A DNA stretch of 64,000 nt from the IMG/VR virus record IMGVR_UViG_3300033692_000022; one strand, 5' to 3'. The DNA is from a virus (Duplodnaviria > Heunggongvirae > Uroviricota > Caudoviricetes). The position numbers were made by a program, and so were the translations under genes. Under the pieces are notes generated by a model. The model was not told where the DNA came from. It saw nothing but the letters and a program-made list of their open reading frames with translations, and ran no database searches. Positions within the stretch are counted from its first letter, which is position 1, and every line of letters begins with the position of its first letter. Below are positions 50,192 through 62,472 of the stretch, one piece after another.

Positions 50192-50255
50192 TAATTTGCA
50201 GTCGAAAGAAGTCGGCGTTACGCAGTTTATTAGTCAAAACTAAAAGGAGGTAGCG

Positions 50256-51080
50256 TTGATGAATATTAAAGAAGTTATGATGGCAGAACAGCCAGAAAAC
50301 GCAAAAGAGGTTATTGAGAGGAAATTGGACCCGAATTGGATTAAGCAAAGAAAGGGTAGAGGCGGAATTATGCTCGACTACCTAGAGGGGCACAGAGTAA
50401 TTGCTATTTTAAATGAGGCCTTTGATTACAAGTGGAGTTTCCAAGTTTTAAAAAAAGAAACAATCTCCCCGGGCAAAGGTAAAGAATTTGTAGAAGTCAT
50501 GGGTAGACTTACAATTCCAGGTGTCGGTGTTAAAGAGGCATACGGAACAAAAGAGCTTTACGGTGATCAGTCACAAGCGGCTAAAGCAGCAGCAACTGAC
50601 GCACTGAAAAAAGCAGCCAGTATGGCAGGAATTGGACTAGAACTTTGGAACGATGATGACGATTATAACTCCAACAATAGTTATGGTGGTAATAACAGTT
50701 ATGGAAATAATAACAGCTATAATAACAATAACTACAATAATAATAATGGTGGCAGTACTAATACTGGTACTAATACCAATACTGGTACTAATACTGGTAC
50801 CAAAAATGGTGGTAATAATGGTGGTAATAGTCAGCAGTCTAGTCAGGCCAACAACTCTAGAGGCGGAAAAACATGGGCGCAACCAGAAATAGTACAGGCG
50901 GCCAACAACCTAAAGACTAATAAACAGGCTTTAGGAGTCAAAAAGAACGAAGAGTTAAATGAGTACGTTAAGGAATGGTCTAATAACGACCTGAACTCAT
51001 GGCAGGATATTACTCCAGATAACATTCAAGATTTCAACAGCTGGCTACAGAACAATAAAATAGCAAAGCTATCAGCATAA
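50256..51080 (+). CDS. Rad52-family single-strand annealing protein with a low-complexity N/G/T/S-rich C-terminal tail
   Basis: GHRVIAILNEAFDYKWSFQV...VMGRLTIPGVGVKEAYG...AAKAAATDALKKAASMAGIGLELW matches the Rad52/Rad22/Sak N-terminal annealing domain. The tail is NNSYGGNNSYGNNNSYNN...TNTGTNTNTGTNTGT. Confidence 0.6.
   Translation: MMNIKEVMMAEQPENAKEVIERKLDPNWIKQRKGRGGIMLDYLEGHRVIAILNEAFDYKWSFQVLKKETISPGKGKEFVEVMGRLTIPGVGVKEAYGTKELYGDQSQAAKAAATDALKKAASMAGIGLELWNDDDDYNSNNSYGGNNSYGNNNSYNNNNYNNNNGGSTNTGTNTNTGTNTGTKNGGNNGGNSQQSSQANNSRGGKTWAQPEIVQAANNLKTNKQALGVKKNEELNEYVKEWSNNDLNSWQDITPDNIQDFNSWLQNNKIAKLSA
50690..50860 (+). repeat. Short tandem codon repeats (AAT-AAC-AGT-TAT-GGT; ACT-AAT-ACT-GGT) encoding the low-complexity tail of the Rad52-like protein
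   Basis: aatagttatggtggtaataacagttatggaaataataacagctat... and actaatactggtactaataccaatactggtactaatactggtacc. Confidence 0.6.
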
Positions 51081-51162
51081 AAAGTTCACTGAAGTCCCTG
51101 TCGGTATAAAACCCGATGGGGACTAAACTCTTGAAAAGCACAAAAAGAATGGAGGTAATCCT

Positions 51163-51840
51163 ATGGGTTCAAGAATAGATTTAATGGTTTATTATGTAAA
51201 GAAGATGTATACAAAAAAGCCCAACGATGTTCAGAGGAATCAAATAATTACTACTATTACTAATGCACTAGACAATGGGTATTCAGAAAGAGATATAAAG
51301 CTGATAATAGATAAGCACGGAAGAAATTACGGTAGAGAAACTGATATAACAAAAGTAATCCAGATGGAAGGTAAGAAACCTACCGATGATGTAAACTTAC
51401 TCAAGCAGGATAAGTTCTATTATCACTCCGAGCTTAGAATAGTCCCTGGTCCTCCAGTAACAAAGTATAATCCAGAGACTAAAGACTTCACAAGAAAGCA
51501 GGAGGATTATTACTTAGAGCTTAAAGCAAGTTTCACTATGAGTGAATTAATAGATTACTACTGTGACACTATGAAAATAAAAAAGAATGACGCTAATATA
51601 AAAAGGTTTGAGGCAGTATTTAAGAGTCTCTTGGGTTCTTACAAGCTGGATCTTATACTATTTACGATAGATGCAGCTGCTGATATAAGAACAGAAAACC
51701 ACTTAAATCCCCTAATAAATCCGTTTAATCTTACAGACTATATGAATGTTGGAGAACAAAACTTTAATTTAAAAGTTAGCTTAAGTAAGCAGGAAGGTGT
51801 TGATCAAATTGTCTACAAAAAAAGAGAAGCTCTTTTCTAA
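51163..51840 (+). CDS. Hypothetical replication-associated protein
   Basis: 225-aa ORF between the annealing protein and primase genes. No recognisable motif. Confidence 0.3.
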   Translation: MGSRIDLMVYYVKKMYTKKPNDVQRNQIITTITNALDNGYSERDIKLIIDKHGRNYGRETDITKVIQMEGKKPTDDVNLLKQDKFYYHSELRIVPGPPVTKYNPETKDFTRKQEDYYLELKASFTMSELIDYYCDTMKIKKNDANIKRFEAVFKSLLGSYKLDLILFTIDAAADIRTENHLNPLINPFNLTDYMNVGEQNFNLKVSLSKQEGVDQIVYKKREALF

Positions 51841-52855
51841 AATAGAATTTGGTTGCCACTTACCTAATGGATACTTTAAAAGGGGAATGTTTATTGACGA
51901 AGGTGATTTACTTGAAAAGAGAAAAGAATTTTCAAACACTGGAATCTATAAAACAATATATTCTTACCAGAGTAAAGAGGTTGAGGGTAATCCAATCTAC
52001 GGTCCCTTTTATTTAGATTTTGATGCTGAGATGTGGGATGTTGACCCCAAAACAGCAGCCAAAAACTTAAAGAAAGTACAGGAAGATTTTAAGCAGGCGA
52101 TAACTTTCTTTGAGGTAATCTACAATATACCAAGAGAATATGCAAGAACATATTACTCAGGCAAAAAGGGCCTACATCTTATCTATCCGCCAGAGCTTTT
52201 TGCGATAGAACCCAGAGAAGACCTAAACAGAATCTTTAAATTAATCAAAGATGATGTCTGTAAGTATACAAAGAATGATACAGTAGACCAGAGAATTTAT
52301 GATAATAAGAGATTATTTCGAGTCACAAACTCGAGACACCAGGATACAGGATTATATAAGGTGCCGGCAGAGCCAGAGTTCTTACTTAATGCAACAGTTA
52401 AGGAATTACATGAGTATGCTAAAACACCAAAGGTAGTCGAATTTAAAGAGCCAAGAACGATAAGGAAAACCGCAAAGCATTATCGATCAGTAGTTGATAA
52501 ATTCGAATACAAAAAGAAGGAGCGGCAAAAGAGGTTGGAAAGATACAAGGACAAACCTCTAAAACACACTCCACCCTGTATAGACCACTTATTAAAAGAA
52601 GGGGCCAGAAAAGGATACAGAAATAACTCAATGGCCGCACTCACAAGTTTCTTAAAACAAAAAGGCTTAACAGAAGATGAGGTATTCATGAAGATTAAAA
52701 AATGGGGTAAAGAACAGTGCGTCCCACCAATACCTACCAATGAGATAAGGGCAACGGTGCCTTCTGTATATAGCAGTAATAAAAACTATGGATGTGCAGC
52801 ACTAAAAGAGTTATCAGAATGCGATATAGATAATTGCAAACTGGTTAAGAATTAA
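51797..52855 (+). CDS. Archaeo-eukaryotic-type primase (AEP / PrimPol-like) domain protein
   Basis: YLDFDAE (DxD metal site), SGKKGLHLIY (motif II) and LFRVTNSRHQDTGLYK (motif III-like) occur in the expected order and spacing. Confidence 0.5.
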   Translation: MLIKLSTKKEKLFSKIEFGCHLPNGYFKRGMFIDEGDLLEKRKEFSNTGIYKTIYSYQSKEVEGNPIYGPFYLDFDAEMWDVDPKTAAKNLKKVQEDFKQAITFFEVIYNIPREYARTYYSGKKGLHLIYPPELFAIEPREDLNRIFKLIKDDVCKYTKNDTVDQRIYDNKRLFRVTNSRHQDTGLYKVPAEPEFLLNATVKELHEYAKTPKVVEFKEPRTIRKTAKHYRSVVDKFEYKKKERQKRLERYKDKPLKHTPPCIDHLLKEGARKGYRNNSMAALTSFLKQKGLTEDEVFMKIKKWGKEQCVPPIPTNEIRATVPSVYSSNKNYGCAALKELSECDIDNCKLVKN

Positions 52856-53762
52856 AGGGGTCTTTTTCATTAACTTCCTTTTCTAAGACAGAATCAACAA
52901 CATGAGTATATATCTCAGTAGTGCCAAGATTAGAGTGGCCAAGTAACTGCTGAAGATGTCTAATATCCATCCCGGCTGAATGATAGAGCGTAGCGAATGT
53001 ATGTCGCAATGTGTGGCTAGAAACTTTCTTATTTAAGTCTAAATTTTTAACTAACTTTTTAACTATCCAGTGGATAGTATGTCGGGATATACGATTCTTT
53101 TTCTTAGAAACGAAGAGAGCATCAAGTTTAGTTCTAGGACGCTTATCGAGATAATCTGTTAACAGCGAATATGAGACACTATTTAGATAAGCATAGCGTT
53201 CCTTATTACCCTTACCCAAGAGTTTTATTCGTTTCTCTTTTAAGTTCAAATCCTGAATATCAATTCCAGTAACTTCGCTTACACGAAGTCCGGCCATTGC
53301 CATCAGAGCAAGCATAGCCTTGTTTCTCGCATAAAATTCTGTAAAGGTATTATCTACGCCGTCCAAAATTAGCTTAACTTGATCAGAACCCAAGTAAAGA
53401 GGTAACTTTTTGCTTCTAGGGGCATCGTAGTCAATCTTTTCCATAGGATTAAAATTTATCATGCCCTTATTGGCAACGAAGTTAAAGAAGGAATTGAGAG
53501 AAGAAACCTTCCTCGATACTGTTGTGGCGGCGTTCTCTCTGTCATCACTACAGTAATGAAGAAAGGATCTGACATGTTCTGGTGTAATTTCATCGAAAGT
53601 TTTAGGACCCGAATCGAGCTTTAATTCAAAGAAAAAAAGCAAAACTTCGATATCTCGAAGGTATTCTTCGATAGTTGTAAGGGATTTGTTCTTTTCGATT
53701 CTAAGATGATTACGCCAGGAGTTGAGTATTTCTTTTTCATTTTTCACAGTAGATTCCTCCAA
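52845..53762 (-). CDS. Tyrosine site-specific recombinase (phage integrase / XerC-D family)
   Basis: MAGLRVSEVTGIDIQDL...SHTLRHTFATLYHSAGMDIRHLQQLLGHSNLGTTEIYTHV gives the R..H..R..Y catalytic tetrad and LGH motif. It is the only sizeable minus-strand gene. Confidence 0.8.
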   Translation of the reverse strand: MEESTVKNEKEILNSWRNHLRIEKNKSLTTIEEYLRDIEVLLFFFELKLDSGPKTFDEITPEHVRSFLHYCSDDRENAATTVSRKVSSLNSFFNFVANKGMINFNPMEKIDYDAPRSKKLPLYLGSDQVKLILDGVDNTFTEFYARNKAMLALMAMAGLRVSEVTGIDIQDLNLKEKRIKLLGKGNKERYAYLNSVSYSLLTDYLDKRPRTKLDALFVSKKKNRISRHTIHWIVKKLVKNLDLNKKVSSHTLRHTFATLYHSAGMDIRHLQQLLGHSNLGTTEIYTHVVDSVLEKEVNEKDPFNS

Positions 53763-53910
53763 TTCAACAAAATGTGTATTTTGTTTAGTTAGACCTTATA
53801 TTATATATTATTGTACATTTATCATGAAAATCCTTTATTTATATAGATAATCCCATTCTGCCAAGTTACCTTTGGATTTTGGGACAGAAGAAAAAATTAG
53901 GAGGCAGACT

Positions 53911-55047
53911 ATGAGCGCAAATCCTCAGACTGAATATCATCCACTGGCTGAAGATGATATCGACGAAATAAATAATAATAGCGATTCTGACGCAATGGCG
54001 CCACCACCAATGGTGGAAAACTATGATGACCCAAACGCGGGTAGTAACTTACCGCCTATTCAATCAATGACTCAGGATCAGTTAGACAGCATGCCAGAGT
54101 ATATGAGGAATACGGCAATGCTGATAGAAGAATTTGATAGATATTGTAAAGAAAATCCCGACGGCGGGTATATGACAGGTATGGAGCAGTTAGACGACGC
54201 GATAATCGGATTCCAGCCGGGACTTCACTTTGTTGCTGGAATGAGTAATGCAGGTAAATCCTCCTTTCTTTTAAATCTAGCGTGGAAAGTAGCACATAAT
54301 AACGATGACGCCTATGCTCTTTACATCACTCTTGATGATGGTACTAATGACCTTCTACCCCGTATAGTCGCTATGGAGCAGCAGGTTCCAATTAATACTG
54401 CTCGTTATCCTGGTCGTTATACAGATTTTGATGACTTAATAGAAACTCGTGAGGAAGGTATTAGAATACTCTACGACAATGTAGATAAATTTGGAATAAT
54501 GAATAAAGATTACGGCTGGCCGGCAGAAAATTTAGAAGAACTCGTAAAAGAGTACAGAATGCAGTTAGCCGCAAGTGGATCAGACAGAGACCTTTGTATC
54601 TTTATTGATAACTTTCACGACCTCTCCTCTGAAAAAGTCTCAATCGGTACCGACCAGAATGCTAGATTTGAGCAGGCAGGTGGAGCACTAAAGAATATTT
54701 CAGAAACATACGACGTACCAATAATCGCAACAGCAGAATACAAAAAGCTCGAAGGTAAATCAAGGCCCGTTATCTCTGATATTAAGCAGACTGGTAAAAC
54801 AATCTATCAGGCTAAAACAGTTATGCTCTGCTATAACGAAGTTGGAGTTAAAGACGAAATGGCCAAAGTATATTTTGCCCGAGAAGAAAGAGACAGAAAA
54901 AGCCCAATATTTGAAGTACACATCGCAAAAAATAAGAGTTCAGACATGAAGTCTCGTCTCTTCTACGAATTCTATGAGGAAATGGCAAGGTTCGAAGAAG
55001 TACCAAAGACTCAATCTGGACACTATCTCAATATGCTAGGAGGTTAA
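53911..55047 (+). CDS. DnaB-like / RecA-fold replicative helicase. The track start 53872 is probably spurious; a ribosome-binding site supports ATG 53911.
   Basis: Walker A GMSNAGKSSFLLNLAWKVA, followed by YITLDD and FIDNFHDL (Walker B-like), and a C-terminal TGKTIYQAKTVMLCY typical of DnaB C-terminal domain helicases. AGGAGGCAGACTATG. Confidence 0.55.
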   Translation: MSANPQTEYHPLAEDDIDEINNNSDSDAMAPPPMVENYDDPNAGSNLPPIQSMTQDQLDSMPEYMRNTAMLIEEFDRYCKENPDGGYMTGMEQLDDAIIGFQPGLHFVAGMSNAGKSSFLLNLAWKVAHNNDDAYALYITLDDGTNDLLPRIVAMEQQVPINTARYPGRYTDFDDLIETREEGIRILYDNVDKFGIMNKDYGWPAENLEELVKEYRMQLAASGSDRDLCIFIDNFHDLSSEKVSIGTDQNARFEQAGGALKNISETYDVPIIATAEYKKLEGKSRPVISDIKQTGKTIYQAKTVMLCYNEVGVKDEMAKVYFAREERDRKSPIFEVHIAKNKSSDMKSRLFYEFYEEMARFEEVPKTQSGHYLNMLGG

Positions 55048-55049
55048 TT

Positions 55050-55439
55050 ATGAACGATCAAGTTATTATAGGCAGTATGCTTCACTCTAAAATGGAGCAG
55101 CTGCTGATACCATATAAGACAGTTAAAATGATATCCGATAAAGTAACACTACCCAAACAGGTGGTTAAGGATAAGGAAAATGAATATATTAAAAAGAATA
55201 TGAAAAAGTGGAATATGTTTTCTAAAGAAGAAAAATCATATATGAGAGAAACCTGGTATGAAGAAGCTGCCGTATTAGATTACCTAAGAGAAAAAGGAGT
55301 CATTGATAAAACACCTCCCGGTGATGTTGAGATGCTCTGGCAGGAAGATCAGGACGGTAACATAATCAGCTGTGACATTAGACTCTATTATAACAGCACC
55401 GGGCAGTTAGGAGGCACCAGACAAAATGTTCAAAAGTAA
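55050..55439 (+). CDS. Hypothetical protein
   Basis: 129-aa ORF with ribosome-binding site GGAGGTTAATTATG. Confidence 0.3.
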   Translation: MNDQVIIGSMLHSKMEQLLIPYKTVKMISDKVTLPKQVVKDKENEYIKKNMKKWNMFSKEEKSYMRETWYEEAAVLDYLREKGVIDKTPPGDVEMLWQEDQDGNIISCDIRLYYNSTGQLGGTRQNVQK

Positions 55440-55674
55440 TAAAAAGATACTGAAGAAAAAAGCTAAATGTGACGAATACTTCCCCTGCCCTCTCTGCTAT
55501 CGCTGTATGGCAGAAAGCTCTCACAATCCTAAATGTAAGGACTGCAAAGCCGGTAACTGCAAGCATAATGACGAGCAGCGGGCAAAGCTAATTAAAAGAG
55601 AAAACTTTAGACTAAATGTTAACGATGATGTTAAAGAAGCTATCAAAAATATGGAGGGTGAGCAATGTACGTAA
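55426..55674 (+). CDS. Cys-rich zinc-ribbon-like small protein
   Basis: CDEYFPCPLCYRCMAESSHNPKCKDCKAGNCKHND has 8 Cys in 35 residues. Confidence 0.3.
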   Translation: MFKSNKKILKKKAKCDEYFPCPLCYRCMAESSHNPKCKDCKAGNCKHNDEQRAKLIKRENFRLNVNDDVKEAIKNMEGEQCT

Positions 55675-56222
55675 GAAATTTAGGAACTAAAGGAAACTGG
55701 CGTGAAGTAGCAGATGCCGCAAGGACTACAATAGGTATGGAAGCAGGTTCTGGTGAACCGTCTTCTGAATGGAAAAGAAGGATTTTAAAAGCAGAACACT
55801 CTCCTATTCGCTTACTTAAATTTAAGTGGCAGTGGGTAGACCTAAAAAGCTGGATCTCTGTTCACTTTGTCAGACATAAGTTTGGCATAGAACACTTCGT
55901 AAGAAGTCAGCGCAATGACAGACAGGATGAATATGACAGGGACTCTGCTCCTCAATCGACTCTTATAACACACGAGGCCGAAGCTAATGCTCAGGCTATT
56001 ATAAACATCTCTCGTAAAAGACTCTGCGGGCAAAGCCATGCAGAAACAGCTAGCGCCTGGATAGAATTTTTAGAGACAGTTATTAAACCAAATGAGCCAG
56101 AGCTATATGATGTTTGTGTTAGGGAATGTATATACCGTGGAACATGTACTGAAATGGAATCTTGTGGTTATGATATGAGTACTGATTATTTAAGGGAAGT
56201 CGAAAGATATCAAATGTATTAA
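55665..56222 (+). CDS. thyX: Flavin-dependent thymidylate synthase ThyX-like (short form)
   Basis: EHSPIRLLKFKWQWVDLKSWISVHFVRHKFGIEHFVRSQR gives the ThyX H-E-S and RHR-x7-8-S-x-R signature with K replacing the third R. At 185 aa it is shorter than typical ThyX (approximately 220 aa). Confidence 0.5.
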   Translation: MYVRNLGTKGNWREVADAARTTIGMEAGSGEPSSEWKRRILKAEHSPIRLLKFKWQWVDLKSWISVHFVRHKFGIEHFVRSQRNDRQDEYDRDSAPQSTLITHEAEANAQAIINISRKRLCGQSHAETASAWIEFLETVIKPNEPELYDVCVRECIYRGTCTEMESCGYDMSTDYLREVERYQMY

Positions 56223-56256
56223 ATAATAGGAGTTGAACTAATTGGAAGACAAGAAA

Positions 56257-56421: not shown

Positions 56422-56439
56422 AGGAGGAATTTATTAATT

Positions 56440-56655
56440 ATGACATTAGAAGATATTGTAGGAAAGAAAGTTGAGACTATTACTAAGGGACAAAACGGTG
56501 GATACTGGGTTGTATTAGAAGACGGAAGTGCAGTAGGCTTCTCCCCTTCTATGCGTCAGATCGACAATAACACATTTAATCTAGCTTTAGATATTAACTC
56601 TCTGCCTGCAAAAGGTACTACTCCAGATGCTAATGCAGAAAAAGCTGATATCTAA
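56440..56655 (+). CDS. Small hypothetical protein
   Basis: 71-aa ORF with ribosome-binding site AAGGAGGAATTTATTAATTATG. Confidence 0.3.
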   Translation: MTLEDIVGKKVETITKGQNGGYWVVLEDGSAVGFSPSMRQIDNNTFNLALDINSLPAKGTTPDANAEKADI

Positions 56656-57062
56656 TGAGAATACTACATGTTAAGGTTGACAGCAACCTGCCCTCGGACA
56701 TCAAAGAAACAGTAAGGTCCGGGGTGCAGGAAATGTTTAATGGTAAGAATGTAAAGTCAATGATAACTCAGGATGATGATGTTGAGATCTCTTTTTTAGA
56801 TACCAACGTCCTCTCCGAGATTAAATCAGAGCTCGAGGAAATAAAGGAGCTCTTAAAATATCCACCTATTGTCGTAAACGATAACCCTAACCGCAAAGAT
56901 GATTTTCCGCCTGATTTCAGCAAGGAATTACAGAGGCAGCTTAAAGAACTTGAAAAATTGGATGAAGGTGAGGTTCCAGTTGATCCTCTTCCCAGGCAAC
57001 CTTTTAAGGAAAACGACATGATGTATTTCCATAATGAAGTAACAAGTGATGGAGGTGAGTAA
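56655..57062 (+). CDS. Hypothetical acidic protein
   Basis: 135-aa ORF whose start overlaps the upstream stop (TAATG). Confidence 0.3.
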   Translation: MRILHVKVDSNLPSDIKETVRSGVQEMFNGKNVKSMITQDDDVEISFLDTNVLSEIKSELEEIKELLKYPPIVVNDNPNRKDDFPPDFSKELQRQLKELEKLDEGEVPVDPLPRQPFKENDMMYFHNEVTSDGGE

Positions 57063-57326
57063 ATGAAAAAATTCGAAGATGTAGTTGGCAAATCAGTACA
57101 GACTAAATTAGATAGAGATGCAGCTTACGGAGAAAGCGATTTAAAACCAACACAGGGTAACCTTGAGGAAGGCCCACTACCGCCAAGCGGTGCTATTAAA
57201 TGCAGGTTATGTGGGGAGCCTATTTATATTAAACCGAAAGCACCTGTTTATAGATGGGAAGTAGCAAACGCTGCTCATGTTACATGTGCTAAGAAGTATG
57301 CTGATGAACAAAATAAAGGGGACTAA
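57063..57326 (+). CDS. Small Cys-containing (zinc-ribbon-like) protein
   Basis: KCRLCGEPIYIKPKAPVYRWEVANAAHVTCAKKY. Ribosome-binding site GGAGGTGAGTAAATG. Confidence 0.3.
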   Translation: MKKFEDVVGKSVQTKLDRDAAYGESDLKPTQGNLEEGPLPPSGAIKCRLCGEPIYIKPKAPVYRWEVANAAHVTCAKKYADEQNKGD

Positions 57327-57356
57327 GAGGCAATGCCTCTCCCCTTTTAAGGGGGA
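57327..57356 (+). terminator. Tandem hairpins GAGGC-aat-GCCTC and CCCCtttaGGGG after the zinc-ribbon gene (terminator candidate)
   Basis: Perfect 5-bp GC stem immediately after the stop, then a CCCCTTTTAAGGGG stem-loop with a T tract. Confidence 0.4.
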
Positions 57357-57361
57357 ATTAC

Positions 57362-57754
57362 ATGAAGGAACTAGTTTATAAATACCTAAAAGAGGTAGAG
57401 GAATATACGAAGACAATGGCCAGATTTGGTTTTAATAGCTTAAATGTTTTAAACTTACCGGGTCTACATAATCATCCCGGCCCTCTTGATAATCAGGGTA
57501 GTTATGAAGTCTTTTATTTGAGAAGAAGAGCAGGCAAACTCGAGGCAATAGCTTTCGTAAGTGATAAAAAAATTAAATACAATATAGAAGATATTTATGT
57601 TATTGATATTATGGCTCAGGATAAAGGGATACATGTAGTCTCTGGACTTATAGATCAGTACAACGACCCGTCAGTTTTAGGAAACAGTATTCATTTTGAT
57701 GTGGTAAGTGATAGAGATACTCTGGAGGAATTATTTGATATAGAGATAGTATAG
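57362..57754 (+). CDS. Hypothetical early protein, KYLxEVE N-terminal family member
   Basis: MKELVYKYLKEVEEYTK shares the N-terminal motif with the 57754, 58415 and 61747 genes. Confidence 0.3.
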   Translation: MKELVYKYLKEVEEYTKTMARFGFNSLNVLNLPGLHNHPGPLDNQGSYEVFYLRRRAGKLEAIAFVSDKKIKYNIEDIYVIDIMAQDKGIHVVSGLIDQYNDPSVLGNSIHFDVVSDRDTLEELFDIEIV

Positions 57755-58434
57755 TGGGGGTGTATGTTATGGATAAAGATTTAATAAAAAAATATTTAGA
57801 AGAAGTAGAAGGATTAGATTACGAAAATGTTAAGGCTGATAGGTACTTTATTTTCCACGATAAGAGATTTAAGCTCAGAGAAATAGAAACAGTAACTACA
57901 GATAACAGGCGACAACGGGCAGAATATAACGCTCTATTCGGTACTATGGGGTACCACGAACCAATGGTGAGTTTTACCATGAACTTTACCTTTACCGAAG
58001 AAGGCACAAGGGATAGATACGAAATAGAAGTCTCTTTTGATAATGAAAGACTATACGAGAGAGTAATGAATATCTTAAACGAGTATTATGCTGGTGAGAT
58101 TACAAAGTTAGGTAGCGACATAGACCTAAGTCCATATGTAAGACAGATTAATGTAGCACCTTATTGCACTGTTGATACAATCTGGACTACTCCTTCTATT
58201 GATGATAGCTCAGTTCATACGGGAGAAATAAGTGTCGGTGAACCATTAACACGAGAAAACATAATGGCACATACACATATAGACGAAGATAACTTCAATC
58301 CCGATGTCTATGTTGCTGGTGGTGCTAATGTAAGTATGGAAGCCCCAATAGAGGAAGATTTAAGAGTGGATTTAGAAGAGTTTCAACGACAGATAATGGG
58401 GTCTTTTACAGTGCGTGGTGATAATATTGAATAG
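57754..58434 (+). CDS. Hypothetical early protein, KYLxEVE N-terminal family member
   Basis: DLIKKYLEEVEGLDYENV. 226 aa. Confidence 0.3.
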   Translation: MGVYVMDKDLIKKYLEEVEGLDYENVKADRYFIFHDKRFKLREIETVTTDNRRQRAEYNALFGTMGYHEPMVSFTMNFTFTEEGTRDRYEIEVSFDNERLYERVMNILNEYYAGEITKLGSDIDLSPYVRQINVAPYCTVDTIWTTPSIDDSSVHTGEISVGEPLTRENIMAHTHIDEDNFNPDVYVAGGANVSMEAPIEEDLRVDLEEFQRQIMGSFTVRGDNIE

Positions 58435-58876
58435 CTTAATAGATAAATACTTAATAGAAGTAGAAAAAAAGAACCCCGGTAAAGTTTATGCTCAAATGAA
58501 TATGCCGCTTAAAGCAAGAGATGTAAGATTCAGTCCTGGAGATATAAAAGAGATATATGCTAACTTTGATTGCGATATAAGTGGGATGGCCCAGATAGAA
58601 TTTGAGGTAGTCAGGGATAGTAAAAAGTACAACATATTACTTCAAATTAGCCAGCCACCTATAGAAAACGAGGAACTGGTAATACAGGAATTAACAAACA
58701 GAAAATTCTTCGACCAGCCGACAATGGAATTAAGTATTGAAGTAGTTTTAGATAACTATGTAACTCAGATATATGAATCCGAAGTAGAAACAAATGAAAA
58801 ACAAGAAAATATAACAGAAAAAACTATCAGAGAGATAGTAGAGGAAATTTTCGATGAGGCAAGGGAGCAATTATAA
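58415..58876 (+). CDS. Hypothetical early protein, KYLxEVE N-terminal family member
   Basis: LIDKYLIEVEKKNPGKVY. 153 aa. Confidence 0.3.
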   Translation: MVIILNSLIDKYLIEVEKKNPGKVYAQMNMPLKARDVRFSPGDIKEIYANFDCDISGMAQIEFEVVRDSKKYNILLQISQPPIENEELVIQELTNRKFFDQPTMELSIEVVLDNYVTQIYESEVETNEKQENITEKTIREIVEEIFDEAREQL

Positions 58877-59370
58877 TGAAAAGATCTCTTATAAAAGCCT
58901 ACAAAGAAGTATTCAATGAGGACGAAGGAGTATTTATCGACGATATCTTTTATAAATATGAGGATATGCACATCGATTCTTATGAACTTGTTTTAATAAG
59001 AAATCCAAAGGAAATAAAACACCACATAGACCTTGCTATTTATAGAGGTGGCAACGAATACTTTGTGGTTGAGCTCTTACTTAAAACTGTTAAGTTTATC
59101 AAACTTTTAGACAGACTGGAAAATACAGATGAACTCTTAAATAATATAGCTTACGAACTTGAGCACACTGGCCGCAGCTTGTATTCAGAAAGAAACTATA
59201 CAAGAACGGTAGACAGGATTTATGATAAATGTTTGAAACAAGAAATAGACTTCAGTATCAGGTTCAATCAGGATGAAATCAGAGATAGAAACTTAATACA
59301 CCAGCTTAATATTAAATTCGATATGGAATACTCAACAGACAATCAAAATTACTATACTTACACATACTAA
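58876..59370 (+). CDS. Hypothetical early protein
   Basis: 164-aa ORF overlapping the upstream stop by 1 nt (TAATG). LIKAYKEVFNEDEG is a weak family match. Confidence 0.3.
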   Translation: MKRSLIKAYKEVFNEDEGVFIDDIFYKYEDMHIDSYELVLIRNPKEIKHHIDLAIYRGGNEYFVVELLLKTVKFIKLLDRLENTDELLNNIAYELEHTGRSLYSERNYTRTVDRIYDKCLKQEIDFSIRFNQDEIRDRNLIHQLNIKFDMEYSTDNQNYYTYTY

Positions 59371-59382
59371 AGAGGTGCAGAT

Positions 59383-60144
59383 ATGGAGTTTACAGTCAAA
59401 CAATTACAGGAATTTGGAAGATGCCCGTTAAAATATAAGTTCGGATTTGCTGATGATTTAAGATACCGCAAAGACAGAGATGAAGAACTTGCCGACTCTC
59501 TAAAATCAGCCACTACCTGGTTTTTCGATAAGGTAGAGATGGGAGTACCGCCCACAAAGAGAATGCTCAGACAAAAGTGGGGGAAGATATGGCATGACGG
59601 GAAGAATGTATACGACATATTATTTGACACCTCTTATAAATATGAAAGGCGCCGCAACATCAAGGGTATTAAAGTATTAGACAAGTTTTATGACAGATTC
59701 ATAGAAGATCCCGGGATAATAATCCTCAACAACTATCCCTTTGAGGTCCCAATAAAAGGGGGACATATCCTAAAGGGTAGGTTTGATGTGGTTAGAGAGA
59801 TAGATGACGGGACAAATAAGAAGTTAGAACTAATGAACTTCAGAAGTGATAAATATGCCCCACAGCTTAGAGTTAAAGAAAGAGATTTACTGCTTACAAT
59901 GCACGATTATGCCTTTAGGAAGACATTCGAACAAATCCCCGATCAACTAGCTTATTATGCTTTTAAAAACGACAGGCTCGAAGCGATAAGCCCAATGGAT
60001 GAAAAAAGATTCGCTCGTATGGAGGCTATGGTTAACAACATTGCTTCTATTGTAGAGCAGGAACTCTACTATCCGCGCTTCGACGAAAAACACTACATGT
60101 GCCGGCACTGTGATTATTCAACACTGTGCTCAAGATGGCGCTAA
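59383..60144 (+). CDS. Cas4-like PD-(D/E)XK nuclease with Fe-S-type Cys cluster (phage exonuclease)
   Basis: N-terminal Cys (EFGRCPLKYKF), core GRFDVVREIDDG...LELMNFRSDK (D-x-n-E-x-K), and C-terminal CRHCDYSTLC. One N-terminal plus three C-terminal Cys is the Cas4/RecB-family arrangement. Confidence 0.5.
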   Translation: MEFTVKQLQEFGRCPLKYKFGFADDLRYRKDRDEELADSLKSATTWFFDKVEMGVPPTKRMLRQKWGKIWHDGKNVYDILFDTSYKYERRRNIKGIKVLDKFYDRFIEDPGIIILNNYPFEVPIKGGHILKGRFDVVREIDDGTNKKLELMNFRSDKYAPQLRVKERDLLLTMHDYAFRKTFEQIPDQLAYYAFKNDRLEAISPMDEKRFARMEAMVNNIASIVEQELYYPRFDEKHYMCRHCDYSTLCSRWR

Positions 60145-60159
60145 TACGGAGGTGACACA

Positions 60160-60324
60160 ATGATTGAATTTAAGAATCCAGATGGTAAGAAAGTCATGGA
60201 AATGAATGATGAAGGCGAGAACAAAATTGTTGACCCAGAATACTTTAATGAAATAAGCGAAGAAAATGAAGGAAAATACAGAGTTGATGAAAGCGGGGAA
60301 ATCAAAGAAGTAGAATCTGAATAA
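60160..60324 (+). CDS. Small acidic protein (54 aa), absent from the ORF track
   Basis: Ribosome-binding site GGAGGTGACACAATG. MIEFKNPDGKKVMEMNDEGENKIVDPEYFNEISEENEGKYRVDESGEIKEVESE. Confidence 0.3.
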   Translation: MIEFKNPDGKKVMEMNDEGENKIVDPEYFNEISEENEGKYRVDESGEIKEVESE

Positions 60325-60337
60325 GGAGCTGAACTAA

Positions 60338-60850
60338 TTGATTATACTAGGGATTGACCCATCTACAGTCGCAACAGGATACTCAGTAATGGAGATAGAG
60401 GATCCAGGGGATCACTTCTCTCCTCTGGTCTTTTCTCCTACTGTTATTGAATACGGAGCTATTAAAACAAAAAGAAGTAACAGAATGTCTGATAGAATCA
60501 CAAAGATATACGATAACCTAGAGGATTTAATAGAGAAATACGAACCAGATATCGTAGTCTCTGAAGATCAGTACGGAGGCCGCGTAAACGCAGTAAAAGC
60601 CCTAAGTCACGTAAGAGGAGCAATCATGGTCTTATGTTCTAAGAGAGAACTTCCCCTCTATTTACTGGCACCAAGCCGCGTTAAAAAGACTATGACCGGC
60701 AAGGGTAACTGCAACAAACAGAAAGTAATAGAACATGTAAGCAGCAAATTTGGAATAGACGAAGATGATTTAACAAGCGATATGGCAGACGCTATAGCAA
60801 TAGCATATACCTACCTCTTTTTCGAAGACGATAAGCTACGCACCGCATAA
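60338..60850 (+). CDS. ruvC: RuvC-family Holliday junction resolvase
   Basis: MIILGIDPSTVATGYSVMEIED...DIVVSEDQYGG...DAIAIAYT matches the RuvC catalytic acidic residues and N-terminal signature. TTG start with AGGAGCTGAACTAATTG. Confidence 0.7.
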   Translation: MIILGIDPSTVATGYSVMEIEDPGDHFSPLVFSPTVIEYGAIKTKRSNRMSDRITKIYDNLEDLIEKYEPDIVVSEDQYGGRVNAVKALSHVRGAIMVLCSKRELPLYLLAPSRVKKTMTGKGNCNKQKVIEHVSSKFGIDEDDLTSDMADAIAIAYTYLFFEDDKLRTA

Positions 60851-60878
60851 CACAATACTCAAGGAGGCATATTTTAAA

Positions 60879-61670
60879 TTGGACGACAAAACATACACTT
60901 CAGAAGAAATCGAAGAACTAGTCTTTAATTATAAAGAGAGTGGGGAAAAGCAGAAGGCAGCTAAGGAGCTGCTGGACGCCTTCTTTCCTCTTCATAATAA
61001 ATACGTCAAGATACTAAAGAAAGGTACATGTAATGTTACAGACTCAGACACCAGAGGATTTCTGCACTTATGGATTGAAGATACTACAGAAAAGTACAAA
61101 TTCTTAAATAACTATAATACAGACTGGGCCAGAAGCTACGGAGCTAACATAGCCTCTTTCCTTACTGACCTATGTAAAACATTAAGTTATGATGACTTGT
61201 ACCAGGAACTCAGACTGATCACCCTAAAACTAGCAGATAGATATGAAGATATGGGTAAGTCTTTTCTTGCCTACATCAGTAAATCTTTTAAGTATGAGCT
61301 AAGAAGGAGCCTTAAGACTTTAATCGAGGACCCAGTTATTTATCTTCAAAACTATAATATGTATTATGATGATGAAGATGTTGAGTCTGGATTAAACGAT
61401 AGCTTTAACTCGGATACAAGACTTCAGTATAACGAGAAAGCATTCAGTATGGAATATAAACATCTGGGCCCTATGTGGCTGAAAGGTAAAACCTGCTCTG
61501 AAAAGTTTAAAGAACTCACTTTAGTGGAACGCAAGATTATTAAAATGTATTATTTAGATGGATTGCCAGATAAAGATATTGCAGAGGAGCTGGGCTATAG
61601 CCGCTCTTGGGTTAACTCTCTTCGCAAAGATATCGTAGAGAAATTAGAAGATGAAGAAAAAGTTTCTTAA
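60879..61670 (+). CDS. Phage-encoded sigma-70-family sigma factor
   Basis: Region 2-like LYQELRLITLKLADRYEDMGKSFLAYISKSFKYELRR and a region 4 HTH DKDIAEELGYSRSWVNSLRKDIVEKL. Confidence 0.5.
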   Translation: MDDKTYTSEEIEELVFNYKESGEKQKAAKELLDAFFPLHNKYVKILKKGTCNVTDSDTRGFLHLWIEDTTEKYKFLNNYNTDWARSYGANIASFLTDLCKTLSYDDLYQELRLITLKLADRYEDMGKSFLAYISKSFKYELRRSLKTLIEDPVIYLQNYNMYYDDEDVESGLNDSFNSDTRLQYNEKAFSMEYKHLGPMWLKGKTCSEKFKELTLVERKIIKMYYLDGLPDKDIAEELGYSRSWVNSLRKDIVEKLEDEEKVS

Positions 61671-61706
61671 TTTAGTAAATGAAATATAAAAATGTAATAA
61701 AAACGT

Positions 61707-61735
61707 TTGACATCTATGTTTCATTATGCTATAAT
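61707..61735 (+). promoter_or_regulatory. Second consensus sigma-70-type promoter (TTGACA–17 nt–TATAAT)
   Basis: ttgacaTCTATGTTTCATTATGCtataat, sharing the GTTTCAT spacer core with the 50163 promoter, 12 nt upstream of the nuclease gene ribosome-binding site region. Confidence 0.6.
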
Positions 61736-61746
61736 AAATATATCAG

Positions 61747-62472
61747 ATGGAAGGGGGAGACAAAATGCCTACAGAATTAGTTAGAGGTTATCTTGAAAAA
61801 GTAGAAGGATACGGCGAAGATTACAGTCTTGCTGATTTAATAAATAATAAACTCAGACAGGAAGAAATCTTTTCAGAACGCGATATGACGGTTTTCCACC
61901 CCTCTTCTGTTGGGTACTGCGCGAGAAAGGTGGCTGCCGACATGATCGGTACCTACCCTAAAGAACAGATTGAAGAAAGAATCTTAAGGGTATTTCAAAA
62001 CGGCCACTCTTCTCACGAAAGAATACAGAACTGGTTTAATGAGATGGGAATCATGGTCGAGGAAGAAAAGCGACTTACTGATGACGAACTCAATATAAAG
62101 GGTAACTGCGATGGGGTGCTTGAACTTGGTGATGATGGCCTATTTGTCTTAGAAATTAAGACTATAAGTGCCAAAGGCTATAGATACATTAAGGAGCCAA
62201 AACCAAAGCACTACGCACAGATACAGCTTTATATGCACCTTGCAGAAATCCATAAGGGGATTCTCTTTTACGAGTGCAAGGATGACCAGAGAATAAAAGA
62301 ATTTAAAGTCGAATATGACGAAGAATTTGTTGAAGAACTGATAGAAAAGATAAAATATATAAATGAATGTGTGGCTAACCGAGAGCTACCAGAAAGACAG
62401 TATGAGAAAAACAGCTTTGACTGCCGCTATTGTGAATACAGAGAAACAATATGCTGGCCAGACGAAGACTAA
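61747..62472 (+). CDS. Second Cas4-like PD-(D/E)XK nuclease with C-terminal Cys cluster. It also carries the YLEKVEG N-terminal motif.
   Basis: Core GNCDGVLELGDDGLFVLEIKTIS (D..E.K) with Q-h-x-x-Y (HYAQIQLYMH), CARKVAAD N-terminal Cys, and a C-terminal CRYCEYRETICW. Confidence 0.5.
   Translation: MEGGDKMPTELVRGYLEKVEGYGEDYSLADLINNKLRQEEIFSERDMTVFHPSSVGYCARKVAADMIGTYPKEQIEERILRVFQNGHSSHERIQNWFNEMGIMVEEEKRLTDDELNIKGNCDGVLELGDDGLFVLEIKTISAKGYRYIKEPKPKHYAQIQLYMHLAEIHKGILFYECKDDQRIKEFKVEYDEEFVEELIEKIKYINECVANRELPERQYEKNSFDCRYCEYRETICWPDED

What the first reader, a model, noticed from the sequence alone, without database searches (positions are those of the whole stretch)
50256..62472. Recombination-dependent replication toolkit: Rad52-like annealase, two Cas4-like Fe-S nucleases, RuvC, AEP primase and DnaB-like helicase, with an integrase embedded antisense
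**What the sequence shows**
- Rad52-family single-strand annealing protein, a PrimPol-like AEP, a RecA-fold helicase, ThyX and RuvC co-occur with two separate Cas4-like PD-(D/E)XK nucleases (59383 and 61747), each with the 1+3 Cys arrangement.
- A tyrosine integrase is the only minus-strand gene, convergent with and overlapping the primase 3' end by 11 nt.

**Interpretation**
- This is a coherent but unusual combination.
- One Cas4-like protein may be the annealase partner exonuclease; the second is unexplained.
- The 61747 nuclease also shares its N-terminal KYLxEVE motif with three small early proteins.
Basis: partly seen in the sequence, partly recalled or inferred. Interest (0 to 1): 0.5.

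Follow-up and report, generated by a model that had tools for sequence, protein, structure and literature searches.

The report
Jumbo-phage replication and recombination gene block
This stretch is the early DNA replication and recombination gene block of a large Bacillus-type phage lineage known since 2007, so the gene set is ordinary for that lineage, but this phage adds a Xer-type recombinase, and one of its two "nucleases" lacks the usual catalytic motif.

Summary
Window 50256-62472 encodes these proteins:
- a Rad52-type annealing protein
- an AEP primase with a PriCT-1 domain
- a DnaB-type helicase
- a remote ThyX-fold protein
- two Fe-S PD-(D/E)XK proteins, each with a 1+3 cysteine pattern
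- RuvC
- one minus-strand tyrosine recombinase that overlaps the primase 3' end by 11 nt

The combination is not unusual. The same gene order is found in Bacillus phage 0305phi8-36, KLEB27-3 and WH1, in Moorella phage MTATph1, and in 140-260 kb plasmid-prophages such as pBtic235 and pCBJ.

Three things are specific to this phage or its close relatives.
1. The recombinase is Xer-type, with XerA and XerD as best matches and all catalytic residues present. None of the relatives I examined has it between primase and helicase, a junction that carries other accessory genes in those relatives.
2. The 59383 protein has an AdnA/AddB/Cas4 fold and four invariant cysteines, but its motif III reads N-F-R. 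Only about 20% of its family keep (D/E)xK. The 61765 Cas4 is canonical and has its own conserved consensus promoter.
3. An N-terminal motif, ELIxxYLxxVE, marks a fast-changing set of small proteins and also Cas4.

I found no attP or dif site. I judge this a new member of a known kind, of modest interest.

The parts
50163..50191 (+). Exact sigma-A-type promoter (TTGACA, 17 nt, TG-TATAAT) at the head of the block
   Evidence: This is one of only two matches in 64 kb, both with zero mismatches and both intergenic and correctly oriented.
50256..51080 (+). Rad52/Sak-type single-strand annealing protein. It has an N-terminal Rad52 domain, an N/G/S/T-rich linker and a roughly 70-aa C-terminal domain. 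The likely start is ATG 50259.
   Evidence: PF04098 E 1.6e-12. Human RAD52 E 2e-8. Homologues sit at the same position in relatives.
51163..51840 (+). Homologue of 0305phi8-36 gp180. It is a conserved protein of unknown function whose 3' end overlaps the primase start, so it is a probable primase partner.
   Evidence: tblastn hits in L001, L002, L004-L009 and L033, always directly upstream of the primase. Alignment A7. No hit in any family library.
51797..52855 (+). Archaeo-eukaryotic (AEP) primase fused to a PriCT-1/PriL-like helical domain with four conserved C-terminal cysteines
   Evidence: phrog_16345 E 4e-51, PriCT_1 E 2.6e-6, DNA_primase_lrg E 3.3e-7. Invariant D74, D76, H127, D169, C261, C333, C342 and C347.
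52845..53762 (-). Xer-type tyrosine recombinase. It is the only minus-strand gene, it converges on the primase with an 11-nt overlap, and it is specific to this phage lineage at this position.
   Evidence: XerD 227 bits, XerC 226 bits and XerA 202 bits, all below the equivalog cut-offs. XerA 5hxy E 1.5e-33 with R, K, HxxR, H and Y all present. Absent from this junction in all relatives examined. The nearest homologues, at 35-39% identity, are chromosomal Xer genes of Clostridia.
53763..53910 (.). AT-rich spacer between the recombinase start and the helicase start. It holds short palindromes and a 17-nt direct repeat (53817-53833 and 53837-53853). No recombination site was demonstrated.
53911..55047 (+). 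DnaB-type replicative helicase. Only the RecA-like C-terminal domain is present. The N-terminus is acidic and proline-rich, and there is no DnaB N-domain. An alternative TTG start lies at 53872.
   Evidence: DnaB_C E 1.6e-20, phrog_243 E 1.5e-31. RBS AGGAGG lies before ATG 53911. The public gene call is 378 aa.
55426..55674 (+). Small protein with 8 cysteines (zinc-finger-like), conserved across the phage family
   Evidence: phrog_34434 E 5e-8. tblastn hits in L002, L007, L008, L009, L033 and L034.
55665..56222 (+). Short ThyX-fold protein of 185 aa with five invariant cysteines and RHK-x8-SQR in place of the ThyX motif
   Evidence: 2286 homologues, the best 120 at about 56-79% identity. Alignment A5. 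22 of 25 members touch PF02511. AF2 pLDDT 86.7. All of the top 50 Foldseek matches are ThyX.
57362..59370 (+). Four consecutive acidic small ORFs: 57362-57754, 57769-58434, 58415-58876 and 58876-59370. The first three begin with (D/E)L(I/V)xKYLxEVE and the fourth with a weaker version. This region changes rapidly between relatives.
   Evidence: No family hits.
59383..60144 (+). Homologue of 0305phi8-36 gp190 ("RecB"). It has the Fe-S AdnA/AddB/Cas4 fold with four invariant cysteines, but motif III reads N-F-R instead of (D/E)xK.
   Evidence: PDDEXK_1 E 7.5e-9. Alignment A3. P0122 and P0123 keep NxR. Family statistics. Model and fold search.
60160..60324 (+). Small acidic ORF conserved between the RecB-like gene and RuvC in close relatives
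   Evidence: blastp at 57-67% identity to ORFs in L028 and L031.
60338..60850 (+). RuvC-type Holliday junction resolvase
   Evidence: PF02075 E 2.1e-24, phrog_159 E 3.9e-37.
60879..61670 (+). Sigma-70-family factor with regions 2 and 4, the homologue of 0305phi8-36 gp193
   Evidence: Sigma70_r4 E 8.9e-8. TIGR02937 scores 46.5 bits against a cut-off of 42.9. Conserved after RuvC in relatives.
61707..61735 (+). Second exact sigma-A-type promoter, dedicated to the Cas4 gene
   Evidence: A near-consensus promoter with an extended -10 sits at the same place in L028-L031.
61765..62472 (+). Canonical Cas4-family Fe-S exonuclease with D...EIK...QxxxY and 1+3 cysteines. Its N-terminal helix carries the shared motif. 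The likely start is ATG 61765, after RBS GGGGGAG.
   Evidence: phrog_1706 E 1.9e-41. TIGR00372 scores 60.2 bits against a cut-off of 65. Alignment to SSO0001, PDB 4ic1. Invariant D, ExK and QxxxY in alignment A2.

Best explanation
Window 50163-62472 is the early replication and recombination block of a large tailed phage, or phage-plasmid, of the 0305phi8-36 lineage. The host is a low-GC Bacillota bacterium.

What is shown:
- the identity of the genes
- their conserved order
- two exact host-type promoters

What I infer about how it works:
1. Host sigma-A RNA polymerase starts at the consensus promoter at 50163 and reads the whole co-oriented block.
2. The AEP primase, together with the translationally coupled gp180-like protein, and the DnaB-type helicase form the priming and unwinding core.
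3. The Rad52-type protein anneals single strands that are exposed by the canonical Cas4-family 5'-3' exonuclease. That exonuclease is transcribed from its own consensus promoter at 61707. Annealing joins or restarts replicating genomes into concatemers.
4. RuvC removes branches before packaging.
5. The sigma factor switches transcription to later genes.

The gp190-like Fe-S protein keeps the nuclease fold and its cluster cysteines but has lost the canonical (D/E)xK. It most likely acts as a DNA-end-binding or partner subunit rather than as a standard nuclease.

The Xer-type recombinase is an accessory gene that sits at a junction which varies between family members. Relatives of this phage live as circular plasmid-prophages and also carry tyrosine recombinases. 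For that reason its most likely job is to resolve circular multimers, as Cre and Xer do. Integration into a chromosome is the main alternative.
For: Gene identities.

Synteny with 0305phi8-36, KLEB27-3, WH1, Moorella MTATph1, IMG/VR contigs, pCBJ, pBtic235, a Paenibacillus plasmid and a Bacillota MAG.

Prior descriptions:
- PMC2147016 describes orf180, primase, helicase and recB as the conserved left-arm set.
- PMC2896510 notes that 0305phi8-36 has both a Rad52-like and a Rad51-like gene.

Promoters:
- They are the only two TTGACA-17-TATAAT matches in 64 kb, both exact and both at block boundaries.
- The Cas4 promoter is conserved in four close relatives.

The two Fe-S proteins:
- The Cas4 catalytic motifs are intact.
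- The gp190-like motif III is N-F-R here and NxR in relatives at 65% and 54% identity.
- Only 27 of 134 family representatives have (D/E)xK, while 129-133 of 134 keep each cysteine.
- The fold was confirmed.

The recombinase:
- It is Xer-type with all catalytic residues.
- It is absent between primase and helicase in every relative examined. That junction holds a dUTPase in L008, a 3.2-kb ORF in pCBJ and two small ORFs in KLEB27-3.
- The family includes 23 circular plasmids of 140-260 kb.
- pBtic235 is a circular jumbo prophage (PMC9700832) that is reported to encode its own XerC (PMC8116677).
- pCBJ and MTATph1 carry unrelated tyrosine recombinases close to this block.
Against: - No DNA polymerase, SSB, clamp or strand-invasion recombinase lies in the window, so replication driven by recombination is inferred from gene content only.
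- Early timing rests on promoter sequence alone.
- The annealase and the Cas4 gene are 10.7 kb apart, whereas known annealase-exonuclease pairs are usually adjacent.
- 0305phi8-36 was not among the five Bacillus records that matched the Cas4 protein in the tblastn search, so it may lack a detectable homologue. The pairing is therefore probably not universal in the family.
- Loss of (D/E)xK does not prove loss of activity, because some PD-(D/E)XK enzymes relocate their catalytic residues.
- For the recombinase, I found no dif-like or attP-like site. I found no strong minus-strand promoter. No partition or repressor genes lie in the window.
- Only 64 kb of a contig of at least 134 kb was available.
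Confidence: 0.8

Rival explanations
1. The recombinase is a true lysogeny integrase. Its attP lies in the 148-bp spacer at 53763-53910, and the phage integrates into a host chromosome.
For: - Small tyrosine integrases that lack an arm-binding domain exist. The mycobacteriophage Brujita-type Gp33 (PDB 5vfz) is hit at E 1.5e-14.
- Moorella phage MTATph1, of the same family, has a 305-aa integrase next to tRNA-Phe.
- The spacer is AT-rich with short palindromes and a 17-nt direct repeat.
Against: - The best matches are Xer proteins, not phage integrases.
- The nearest homologues are housekeeping chromosomal Xer genes.
- No tRNA gene or tRNA fragment is nearby.
- No repressor or excisionase is adjacent.
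- No repeat links the spacer to any other place in the window.
- The characterised relatives pBtic235 and pCBJ are extrachromosomal circles (PMC9700832).
Confidence: 0.25
2. The recombinase is passenger cargo, a moron or a selfish insertion at a permissive junction, and plays no part in replication or maintenance of this phage.
For: - The primase-helicase junction carries unrelated accessory genes in other family members.
- It is the only reversed gene.
- No strong promoter was found for it.
- It is absent from all relatives examined at this position.
Against: - All catalytic residues are intact.
- Its composition matches its neighbours, with GC 0.368 and GC3 0.35.
- The insertion left the primase C-terminus, including the conserved NCKL cysteine, untouched.
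- An identical copy is present on another contig, from a JGI metagenome sample.
Confidence: 0.25
3. Both Fe-S proteins are active nucleases with different jobs. The 59383 protein would use a non-canonical catalytic set, such as D135, E149 and R154, for a task like host DNA degradation or flap processing. The Cas4 would serve recombination.
For: - The motif II acidic residue is kept in 115 of 134 family representatives. A conserved E, Q or D lies three residues before motif III in 115 of 134. R138 is kept in 106 of 134.
- N and R at motif III are conserved among close relatives, which suggests selection on those positions.
- The fold is confidently that of AdnA, AddB and Cas4.
Against: - Across the family the motif III positions are highly variable. 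D occurs in 44 and K in 39 of 134, with many hydrophobic replacements. That is not expected for a catalytic site.
- 0305phi8-36 gp190 has E-F-I and L008 has K-F-I.
Confidence: 0.35
4. The shared N-terminal ELIxxYLxxVE helix is only a remnant of recent duplication or gene conversion between the Cas4 5' end and neighbouring ORFs, and has no function of its own.
For: - The 5' ends of the 57769 ORF and of Cas4 share 72% DNA identity over 46 nt (D12).
- blastp between Cas4 and the 57754 ORF gives E 8.5e-4 over about 100 aa.
Against: - The motif is kept at the protein level through synonymous codon changes.
- It recurs on otherwise unalignable ORFs, and on Cas4, in relatives whose Cas4 is 69-74% identical.
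- One copy occurs in the distant relative L008.
- It always sits at the extreme N-terminus.
Confidence: 0.3

Closest known systems
Left-arm replication genes of Bacillus phage 0305phi8-36 (orf179-orf193) and its relatives KLEB27-3 and WH1
   Same: The gene order is the same: lysis genes, Rad52-like, gp180, AEP primase, DnaB helicase, small ORFs including a Cys-rich protein, RecB-like gp190, RuvC gp192 and sigma-like gp193. Protein identities are 25-40%.
   Different: - The window has a Xer-type recombinase between primase and helicase.
- It has a ThyX-fold gene.
- It has a set of small ORFs tagged with the N-terminal motif.
- It has a Cas4 gene directly after sigma, on the same strand and with its own promoter.
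- 0305phi8-36 itself was not among the records matching the Cas4 protein.
Circular jumbo plasmid-prophages pBtic235 (B. thuringiensis israelensis) and pCBJ (C. baratii)
   Same: - They share the gp180-like, primase and DnaB core, PD-(D/E)XK proteins and RuvC.
- They carry tyrosine or Xer-type recombinases (PMC8116677).
- pBtic235 is an inducible circular prophage (PMC9700832).
   Different: - The pCBJ recombinase is not orthologous (24% identity) and lies elsewhere.
- I did not locate or compare the XerC reported for pBtic235.
- No plasmid maintenance genes are visible in the 64-kb window.
Moorella phage MTATph1
   Same: It has the order primase, DnaB, further genes, RuvC, sigma-like regulator and Cas4, all on one strand. 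It also has a 305-aa tyrosine integrase on the opposite strand.
   Different: - A DNA polymerase follows Cas4 there, whereas a 700-nt structured non-coding region follows Cas4 here.
- Its integrase is only 23% identical and sits next to tRNA-Phe.
Phage annealase-exonuclease pairs (lambda Red-beta/Exo, RecT/RecE, Sak with a RecE-like exonuclease)
   Same: A Rad52-superfamily annealing protein occurs together with a PD-(D/E)XK 5'-3' exonuclease in a phage replication module. This comparison rests on established knowledge and on PMC2896510.
   Different: - The two genes are 10.7 kb apart and under separate promoters.
- The exonuclease is a Cas4-family Fe-S enzyme.
- A second, probably non-catalytic, Fe-S paralogue is present.
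Single-recombinase Xer systems (XerA, XerH, XerS) and P1 Cre
   Same: The architecture is the same two domains, a SAM-like domain and a catalytic domain. All catalytic residues are present. XerA and XerD are the best structural-sequence matches.
   Different: - It scores below every Xer equivalog cut-off.
- No dif-like site was found next to the gene, whereas XerS and XerH sites lie beside their genes (from my own knowledge).

Membership tests
Rad52/Rad22 single-strand annealing proteins (PF04098) | Sequence match to the family model above its curated cut-off | tested here: met
   48.1 bits against a cut-off of 20.3, E 1.6e-12. Human RAD52 N-terminal domain E 2e-8.
Rad52/Rad22 single-strand annealing proteins (PF04098) | Ring-forming protein with ssDNA annealing activity | not testable with these tools
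   Needs biochemistry.
Cas4-family Fe-S PD-(D/E)XK exonuclease: protein 61765-62472 | Four cluster cysteines in the pattern C...CxxC...C | tested here: met
   C52, C220, C223 and C230 are invariant in alignment A2.
Cas4-family Fe-S PD-(D/E)XK exonuclease: protein 61765-62472 | Catalytic D, (D/E)xK and QxxxY motifs | tested here: met
   D116, E130, K132 and Q152...Y156 are invariant. They align to the motifs of SSO0001, PDB 4ic1.
Cas4-family Fe-S PD-(D/E)XK exonuclease: protein 61765-62472 | CRISPR-associated Cas4 equivalog score and cas/CRISPR context | tested here: not met
   TIGR00372 scores 60.2 bits against a cut-off of 65. No cas genes appeared among the proteins I scanned, and I did not search the window for a CRISPR array. 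It belongs to the phage group phrog_1706, E 1.9e-41.
Cas4/AddB/AdnA-type Fe-S nuclease domain: protein 59383-60144 | Fold of the Fe-S PD-(D/E)XK nuclease domain | tested here: met
   AF2 pLDDT 92.8. Foldseek matches to AdnA (TM 0.70-0.71), ACE1, AddB, Exo5, SSO0001 and Dna2. PDDEXK_1 scores 36.3 bits against a cut-off of 22.
Cas4/AddB/AdnA-type Fe-S nuclease domain: protein 59383-60144 | Four cluster cysteines | tested here: met
   C14, C240, C243 and C249 are invariant in 50 sequences and present in 129-133 of 134.
Cas4/AddB/AdnA-type Fe-S nuclease domain: protein 59383-60144 | Motif III (D/E)xK catalytic pair | tested here: not met
   The motif is N152-F-R154 here and NxR in P0122 and P0123. 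Only 27 of 134 family representatives have (D/E)xK at this position.
XerC/XerD/XerA tyrosine recombinases | SAM-like N-domain plus catalytic domain with R, K, HxxR, H and Y | tested here: met
   PF02899 and PF00589. Residue-by-residue alignment to XerA 5hxy.
XerC/XerD/XerA tyrosine recombinases | Score above the curated equivalog cut-offs | tested here: not met
   XerD 227.3 against 329.6. XerC 226.3 against 335.2. XerA 201.6 against 220.
XerC/XerD/XerA tyrosine recombinases | A cognate site of about 28 bp, dif-like, with two inverted arms | tested here: inconclusive
   No dif-like match above chance in the window. Only short AT palindromes lie in 53763-53910. The rest of the contig was not available.
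0305phi8-36-lineage replication block | Conserved order gp180-like, AEP primase, DnaB, then further genes, gp190-like, RuvC, sigma-like | tested here: met
ThyX (flavin-dependent thymidylate synthase, PF02511) | ThyX fold | tested here: met
   All of the top 50 Foldseek matches are ThyX. Best E 1.7e-6, TM about 0.6, 12-14% identity.
ThyX (flavin-dependent thymidylate synthase, PF02511) | Family model score and the RHR-x7-S ThyX motif | tested here: not met
   This copy has no Pfam hit. The motif reads RHK-x8-SQR. The canonical motif is from my own knowledge. The protein is 185 aa and has five invariant cysteines that I do not know from canonical ThyX.
AEP primase with PriCT-1 (PrimPol-PV1 supergroup; PMC5862659) | AEP catalytic residues plus a fused PriCT-1/PriL-like helical domain | tested here: met
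   DxD, H and D are invariant. PriCT_1 scores 27.3 bits against a cut-off of 21.1, and DNA_primase_lrg scores 30.3 against 22.4.
RuvC resolvase (PF02075) | Family model above its cut-off | tested here: met
   86.5 bits against a cut-off of 22.2.

The most novel reading that the evidence does not exclude
The N-terminal helix (D/E)L(I/V)xxYLxxV(E/Q) may be a portable address tag. It would send the active Cas4 nuclease and a rapidly changing set of small acidic proteins to one common destination. Candidates for that destination are the primase-helicase-annealase assembly or the capsid interior, by analogy with the capsid-targeting sequences on phage T4 internal proteins. The gp180-like protein has a loosely similar N-terminus and might use the same tag. 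In the same reading, the gp190-like Fe-S protein would be a catalytically dead Cas4-fold partner subunit. Together these would make a previously undescribed organising principle for recombination and anti-host functions in this jumbo-phage lineage.
Probability: 0.12. Interest if true: 0.65.

Novelty: new member of a known kind. Interest (0 to 1): 0.32.

Why it matters
The "unusual toolkit" is the standard replication and recombination block of the 0305phi8-36 lineage. That lineage includes circular jumbo plasmid-prophages such as pBtic235.

Three smaller points could be followed up.
1. A widespread family of Cas4/AddB-fold Fe-S proteins (552 hits) keeps its cluster cysteines almost perfectly, while about three quarters of its members have lost the canonical catalytic (D/E)xK. 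This suggests a non-nuclease role for a domain that is routinely annotated as "RecB/Cas4 exonuclease".
2. A Xer-type recombinase sits inside the replication block of one phage of this lineage. It offers a handle on how such large phage genomes resolve multimers or establish carriage.
3. An N-terminal motif is shared by Cas4 and by fast-changing small proteins. It could mark a common interaction or targeting signal.

Tried and rejected
- Near-identical DNA search of the region against GenBank phages found no match.
- A single-protein scan of IMG/VR with the primase found nothing. It worked only with an alignment.
- The metagenome scan returned only a second copy of the same phage, so I could not test presence or absence of the recombinase among close relatives. 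The closest related contigs, L028-L031, start downstream of the junction.
- attP or dif search:
  - Repeats within 53700-53960.
  - Repeats across the whole window.
  - A Firmicutes dif-like pattern, which gave 3 hits against 3.2 expected and none intergenic near the gene.
  - An apparent resemblance of TATATATTATTGTACATT to the B. subtilis dif XerD arm, seen by eye. I dropped it as unsupported.
- The closest recombinase homologues turned out to be chromosomal housekeeping Xer genes, not phage genes.
- tRNA and Rfam scans of the window found nothing.
- Sequence-only searches for the ThyX call failed for this copy. Only the family-wide scan and the structure prediction resolved it.
- Paralogy among the four small ORFs beyond the N-terminal motif was not significant.
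- An inverted match between the 50172 promoter and 46410-46430 lies inside a small coding ORF, so I dismissed it.
- Composition gave no sign that the recombinase was acquired recently.
- The gp180-like protein had no hit in Pfam, PHROGs or NCBIfam. I built alignment A7 for it but did not search it against PDB.

Full report
**What the window is**

All long ORFs run on the plus strand and GC is about 36%. Upstream of the finding lie virion, tail and lysis genes. One virion protein resembles proteins of Salicola phage SCTP-2 and of phiKZ-like jumbo phages. The region has no near-identical DNA among GenBank phages. An identical copy of part of it sits on a 13-kb contig from a JGI metagenome. The recombinase's exact-sequence cluster reports a contig of 134,508 bp. 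The window is therefore part of a large phage genome.

**Checking the observation**

Profile searches confirm almost every gene call.
- Rad52_Rad22: E 1.6e-12, and a direct hit to human RAD52 at E 2e-8.
- AEP primase: phrog_16345 E 4e-51, with PriCT-1 and PriL-like matches and invariant catalytic residues.
- DnaB C-terminal helicase domain: E 1.6e-20.
- RuvC: E 2e-24.
- A two-domain tyrosine recombinase: E 1.8e-42.
- Two PD-(D/E)XK proteins, each with one N-terminal and three C-terminal cysteines.

The recombinase is the only credible minus-strand gene, and its 3' end overlaps the primase 3' end by 11 nt.

- A sigma-70-family gene at 60879-61670.
- A conserved gene at 51163-51840 that overlaps the primase start.
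- An exact TTGACA-17-TATAAT promoter with an extended -10 TG at 50163.
- A second such promoter at 61707.

These two promoters are the only matches in 64 kb. Both are intergenic and correctly oriented. The likely true starts are ATG 53911 for the helicase and ATG 61765 for Cas4, because each follows a good ribosome-binding site. For the helicase this also matches the public gene call of 378 aa.

**The ThyX call**

This copy has no hit in Pfam, PHROGs, NCBIfam or PDB sequences. It nevertheless belongs to a very large and well conserved family.
- There are 2286 homologues, and the best 120 are about 56-79% identical to it.
- 22 of 25 sampled members touch PF02511.
- An AlphaFold model with pLDDT 86.7 matches only ThyX structures, with E down to 1.7e-6 and TM about 0.6.

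So the fold is ThyX. The protein is short, at 185 aa. It has RHK-x8-SQR where ThyX has its RHR motif, and it carries five invariant cysteines. I would call it "ThyX-fold protein, function untested".

**Is the combination unusual?**

It is not. tblastn of every protein in the block against related loci shows one conserved order. That order is Rad52-like, gp180-like, AEP primase, DnaB, a Cys-rich small protein, the RecB-like protein, RuvC and a sigma-like protein. It appears in these places:
- Bacillus phages 0305phi8-36 and KLEB27-3
- five IMG/VR contigs of 14-264 kb
- a 206-kb Paenibacillus plasmid
- a Bacillota MAG

Cas4 is linked to RuvC and sigma in KLEB27-3 and WH1. In Moorella phage MTATph1 the order RuvC, sigma-like, Cas4 is the same as here.

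Hardies et al. described orf180, primase, helicase and recB as the conserved left-arm set in 2007 (PMC2147016). Lopes et al. noted in 2010 that 0305phi8-36 has both a Rad52-like and a Rad51-like recombinase (PMC2896510).

The primase also hits 23 circular plasmids of 140-260 kb in Bacillus, Paenibacillus and Clostridium. These include C. baratii pCBJ and B. thuringiensis israelensis pBtic235. pBtic235 is an inducible circular jumbo prophage (PMC9700832).

**The recombinase**

NCBIfam places it with XerD, XerC and XerA at 227, 226 and 202 bits, all below the equivalog cut-offs. The best solved relatives are XerA (E 1.5e-33) and XerD (E 9e-30). The catalytic R, K, HxxR, H and Y are all present.

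Apart from its own cluster, the nearest homologues are 35-39% identical chromosomal Xer genes in housekeeping contexts of Clostridia-type genomes.

No relative has a recombinase between primase and helicase. That junction holds a dUTPase in L008, a 3.2-kb ORF in pCBJ and two small ORFs in KLEB27-3. In 0305phi8-36 it is only 12 nt long. The recombinase is therefore an accessory gene at a permissive junction. Its composition is like that of its neighbours.

Family members often carry some tyrosine recombinase.
- pCBJ has one on the minus strand just after the sigma-like gene, at 24% identity.
- MTATph1 has one beside tRNA-Phe, at 23% identity.
- pBtic235 is reported to encode its own XerC (PMC8116677).

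I found no site for it. There are no repeats linking 53763-53910 to anywhere else, and no dif-like pattern above chance. Given the circular plasmid-prophage relatives, I favour multimer resolution at roughly 0.45. Chromosomal integration and passenger cargo each stand at about 0.25.

**The two Fe-S proteins are not equivalent**

The 61765 protein is a canonical phage Cas4.
- It scores phrog_1706 E 1.9e-41.
- It has invariant D, ExK and QxxxY that align to SSO0001.
- It falls just below the CRISPR Cas4 cut-off.

Its dedicated promoter is conserved in four close relatives.

The 59383 protein is the gp190 homologue. Its AlphaFold model has pLDDT 92.8 and best matches the AdnA nuclease domain at TM 0.70-0.71. 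The next matches are ACE1, AddB, Exo5, Cas4 and Dna2. However, motif III reads N152-F-R154.
- Relatives at 65% and 54% identity have N-L-R and N-W-R.
- 0305phi8-36 gp190 has E-F-I, and L008 has K-F-I.
- An exhaustive HMMER search found 552 family members.
- Among 134 full-length representatives, each cysteine is present in 129-133.
- Only 27 of those have (D/E)xK at the aligned position, and only 34 have it anywhere within eight residues.

The family therefore conserves its cluster but not the classical active site. I infer a DNA-end-binding or partner role for this protein, but this is not shown.

**The N-terminal motif**

YLxEVE occurs four times in all six reading frames of the window, and YLEKVE occurs once. 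All five lie within 56187-61789. Three are at residues 8-15 of consecutive ORFs and one is at the N-terminus of Cas4. The codons differ synonymously, so the conservation is at the protein level.

A relaxed pattern hits only these four N-termini among 258 ORFs in the window. In close relatives the same helix heads three to five otherwise unalignable ORFs just upstream of the RecB-like gene, and again heads Cas4. The distant relative L008 has one copy. Cas4 proteins of KLEB27-3, WH1 and MTATph1 lack it.

The tagged proteins are acidic, with pI 4.4-5.2. The function is unknown. A shared docking helix, a targeting signal and a duplication remnant all remain possible.

**How the block most likely works (inferred)**

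1. Host RNA polymerase starts at 50163.
2. The primase, with its coupled gp180-like partner, and the helicase prime and unwind DNA.
3. Cas4 resects DNA ends and the Rad52-type protein anneals the exposed strands, giving concatemers.
4. RuvC debranches the DNA.
5. The sigma factor redirects transcription.

No polymerase, SSB or strand-invasion recombinase lies in the window, and timing is inferred from sequence only.

**Verdict**

This is a new member of a known module that carries a few lineage-specific features, and its interest is modest.

Noticed in passing
window 62780-63140: The 700-nt non-coding stretch after Cas4 holds three units of about 90 nt. Each unit has a GC-rich hairpin (GGGAGG...CCTCCC), a second hairpin whose stem changes while keeping its pairing (CAGACT/AGTCTG, CGGGC/GTCCG, ACAGACC/GGTCTGT), and a box like GTCTGCTGACATAGATTT that occurs nowhere else in the window. 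The RNA fold z-score is -4.6. There is no tRNA and no Rfam match. It could be small RNAs, a promoter-terminator array or a replication origin.
   Followed up: partly
window 55665-56222: The short ThyX-fold protein belongs to a very large, well conserved family of 2286 hits (the best 120 are about 56-79% identical to it), mostly unnamed, with five invariant cysteines (C121, C151, C155, C161, C167) and an altered ThyX motif. Its chemistry may differ from thymidylate synthesis.
   Followed up: partly
window 51797-52855: The primase C-terminus has four invariant cysteines (C261, C333, C342, C347) and a Pfam match to the primase large subunit. It may therefore carry a metal or Fe-S site like PriL.
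   Followed up: partly
window 51163-51840: The gp180-like protein is conserved across the whole family and always overlaps the primase start. It has no detectable family. Its N-terminus (DLMVYYVKKM here, DIVYDYMDLF and DLAVDYIELY in relatives) loosely resembles the ELIxxYLxxV motif.
   Followed up: partly
window 50145-50164 and 61683-61702: A 12-nt AT-rich element (ACATTTTTATAT and ATATAAAAATGT) lies just upstream of both consensus promoters, in opposite orientations. Both promoters also share GTTTCAT in the spacer. It may be an operator or an UP element.
   Followed up: no
window 23806-24105 and 27432-27731; 23453-23540, 32777-32864, 34785-34872 and 35613-35700: The virion and tail genes contain paralogous segments. 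One is a 300-nt repeat at 76% identity at the 5' ends of two genes. Another is an 88-nt motif, encoding about GW..GE.PP..YFNWFW, in four ORFs. This suggests duplicated fibre or receptor-binding modules.
   Followed up: no
window 23805-25667: This virion protein is 33-40% identical to proteins of Salicola phage SCTP-2 and of phiKZ-like and Ralstonia jumbo phages, whereas the replication block points to the 0305phi8-36 lineage. The ancestry looks mosaic.
   Followed up: no
window 53872-54160: The helicase has an N-terminal extension of about 95 residues that is acidic and proline-rich, in place of the DnaB N-terminal domain. In relative L008 the helicase carries a much longer N-terminal domain and is 560 aa in total.
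   Followed up: no
L038 (pBtic235, 175008-175868 and 193017-193925); L037 (206212-207015): pBtic235 also has two PD-(D/E)XK proteins near its primase-helicase core, plus a DUF1071 protein, RecA and SSB. Two nuclease-fold genes therefore recur in the family.
   Followed up: no
L031 5270-5298: A close relative has another exact TTGACA-17-TATAAT promoter after Cas4, in front of an AbrB/SpoVT-like regulator gene. The window has the structured repeat region at that position.
   Followed up: no
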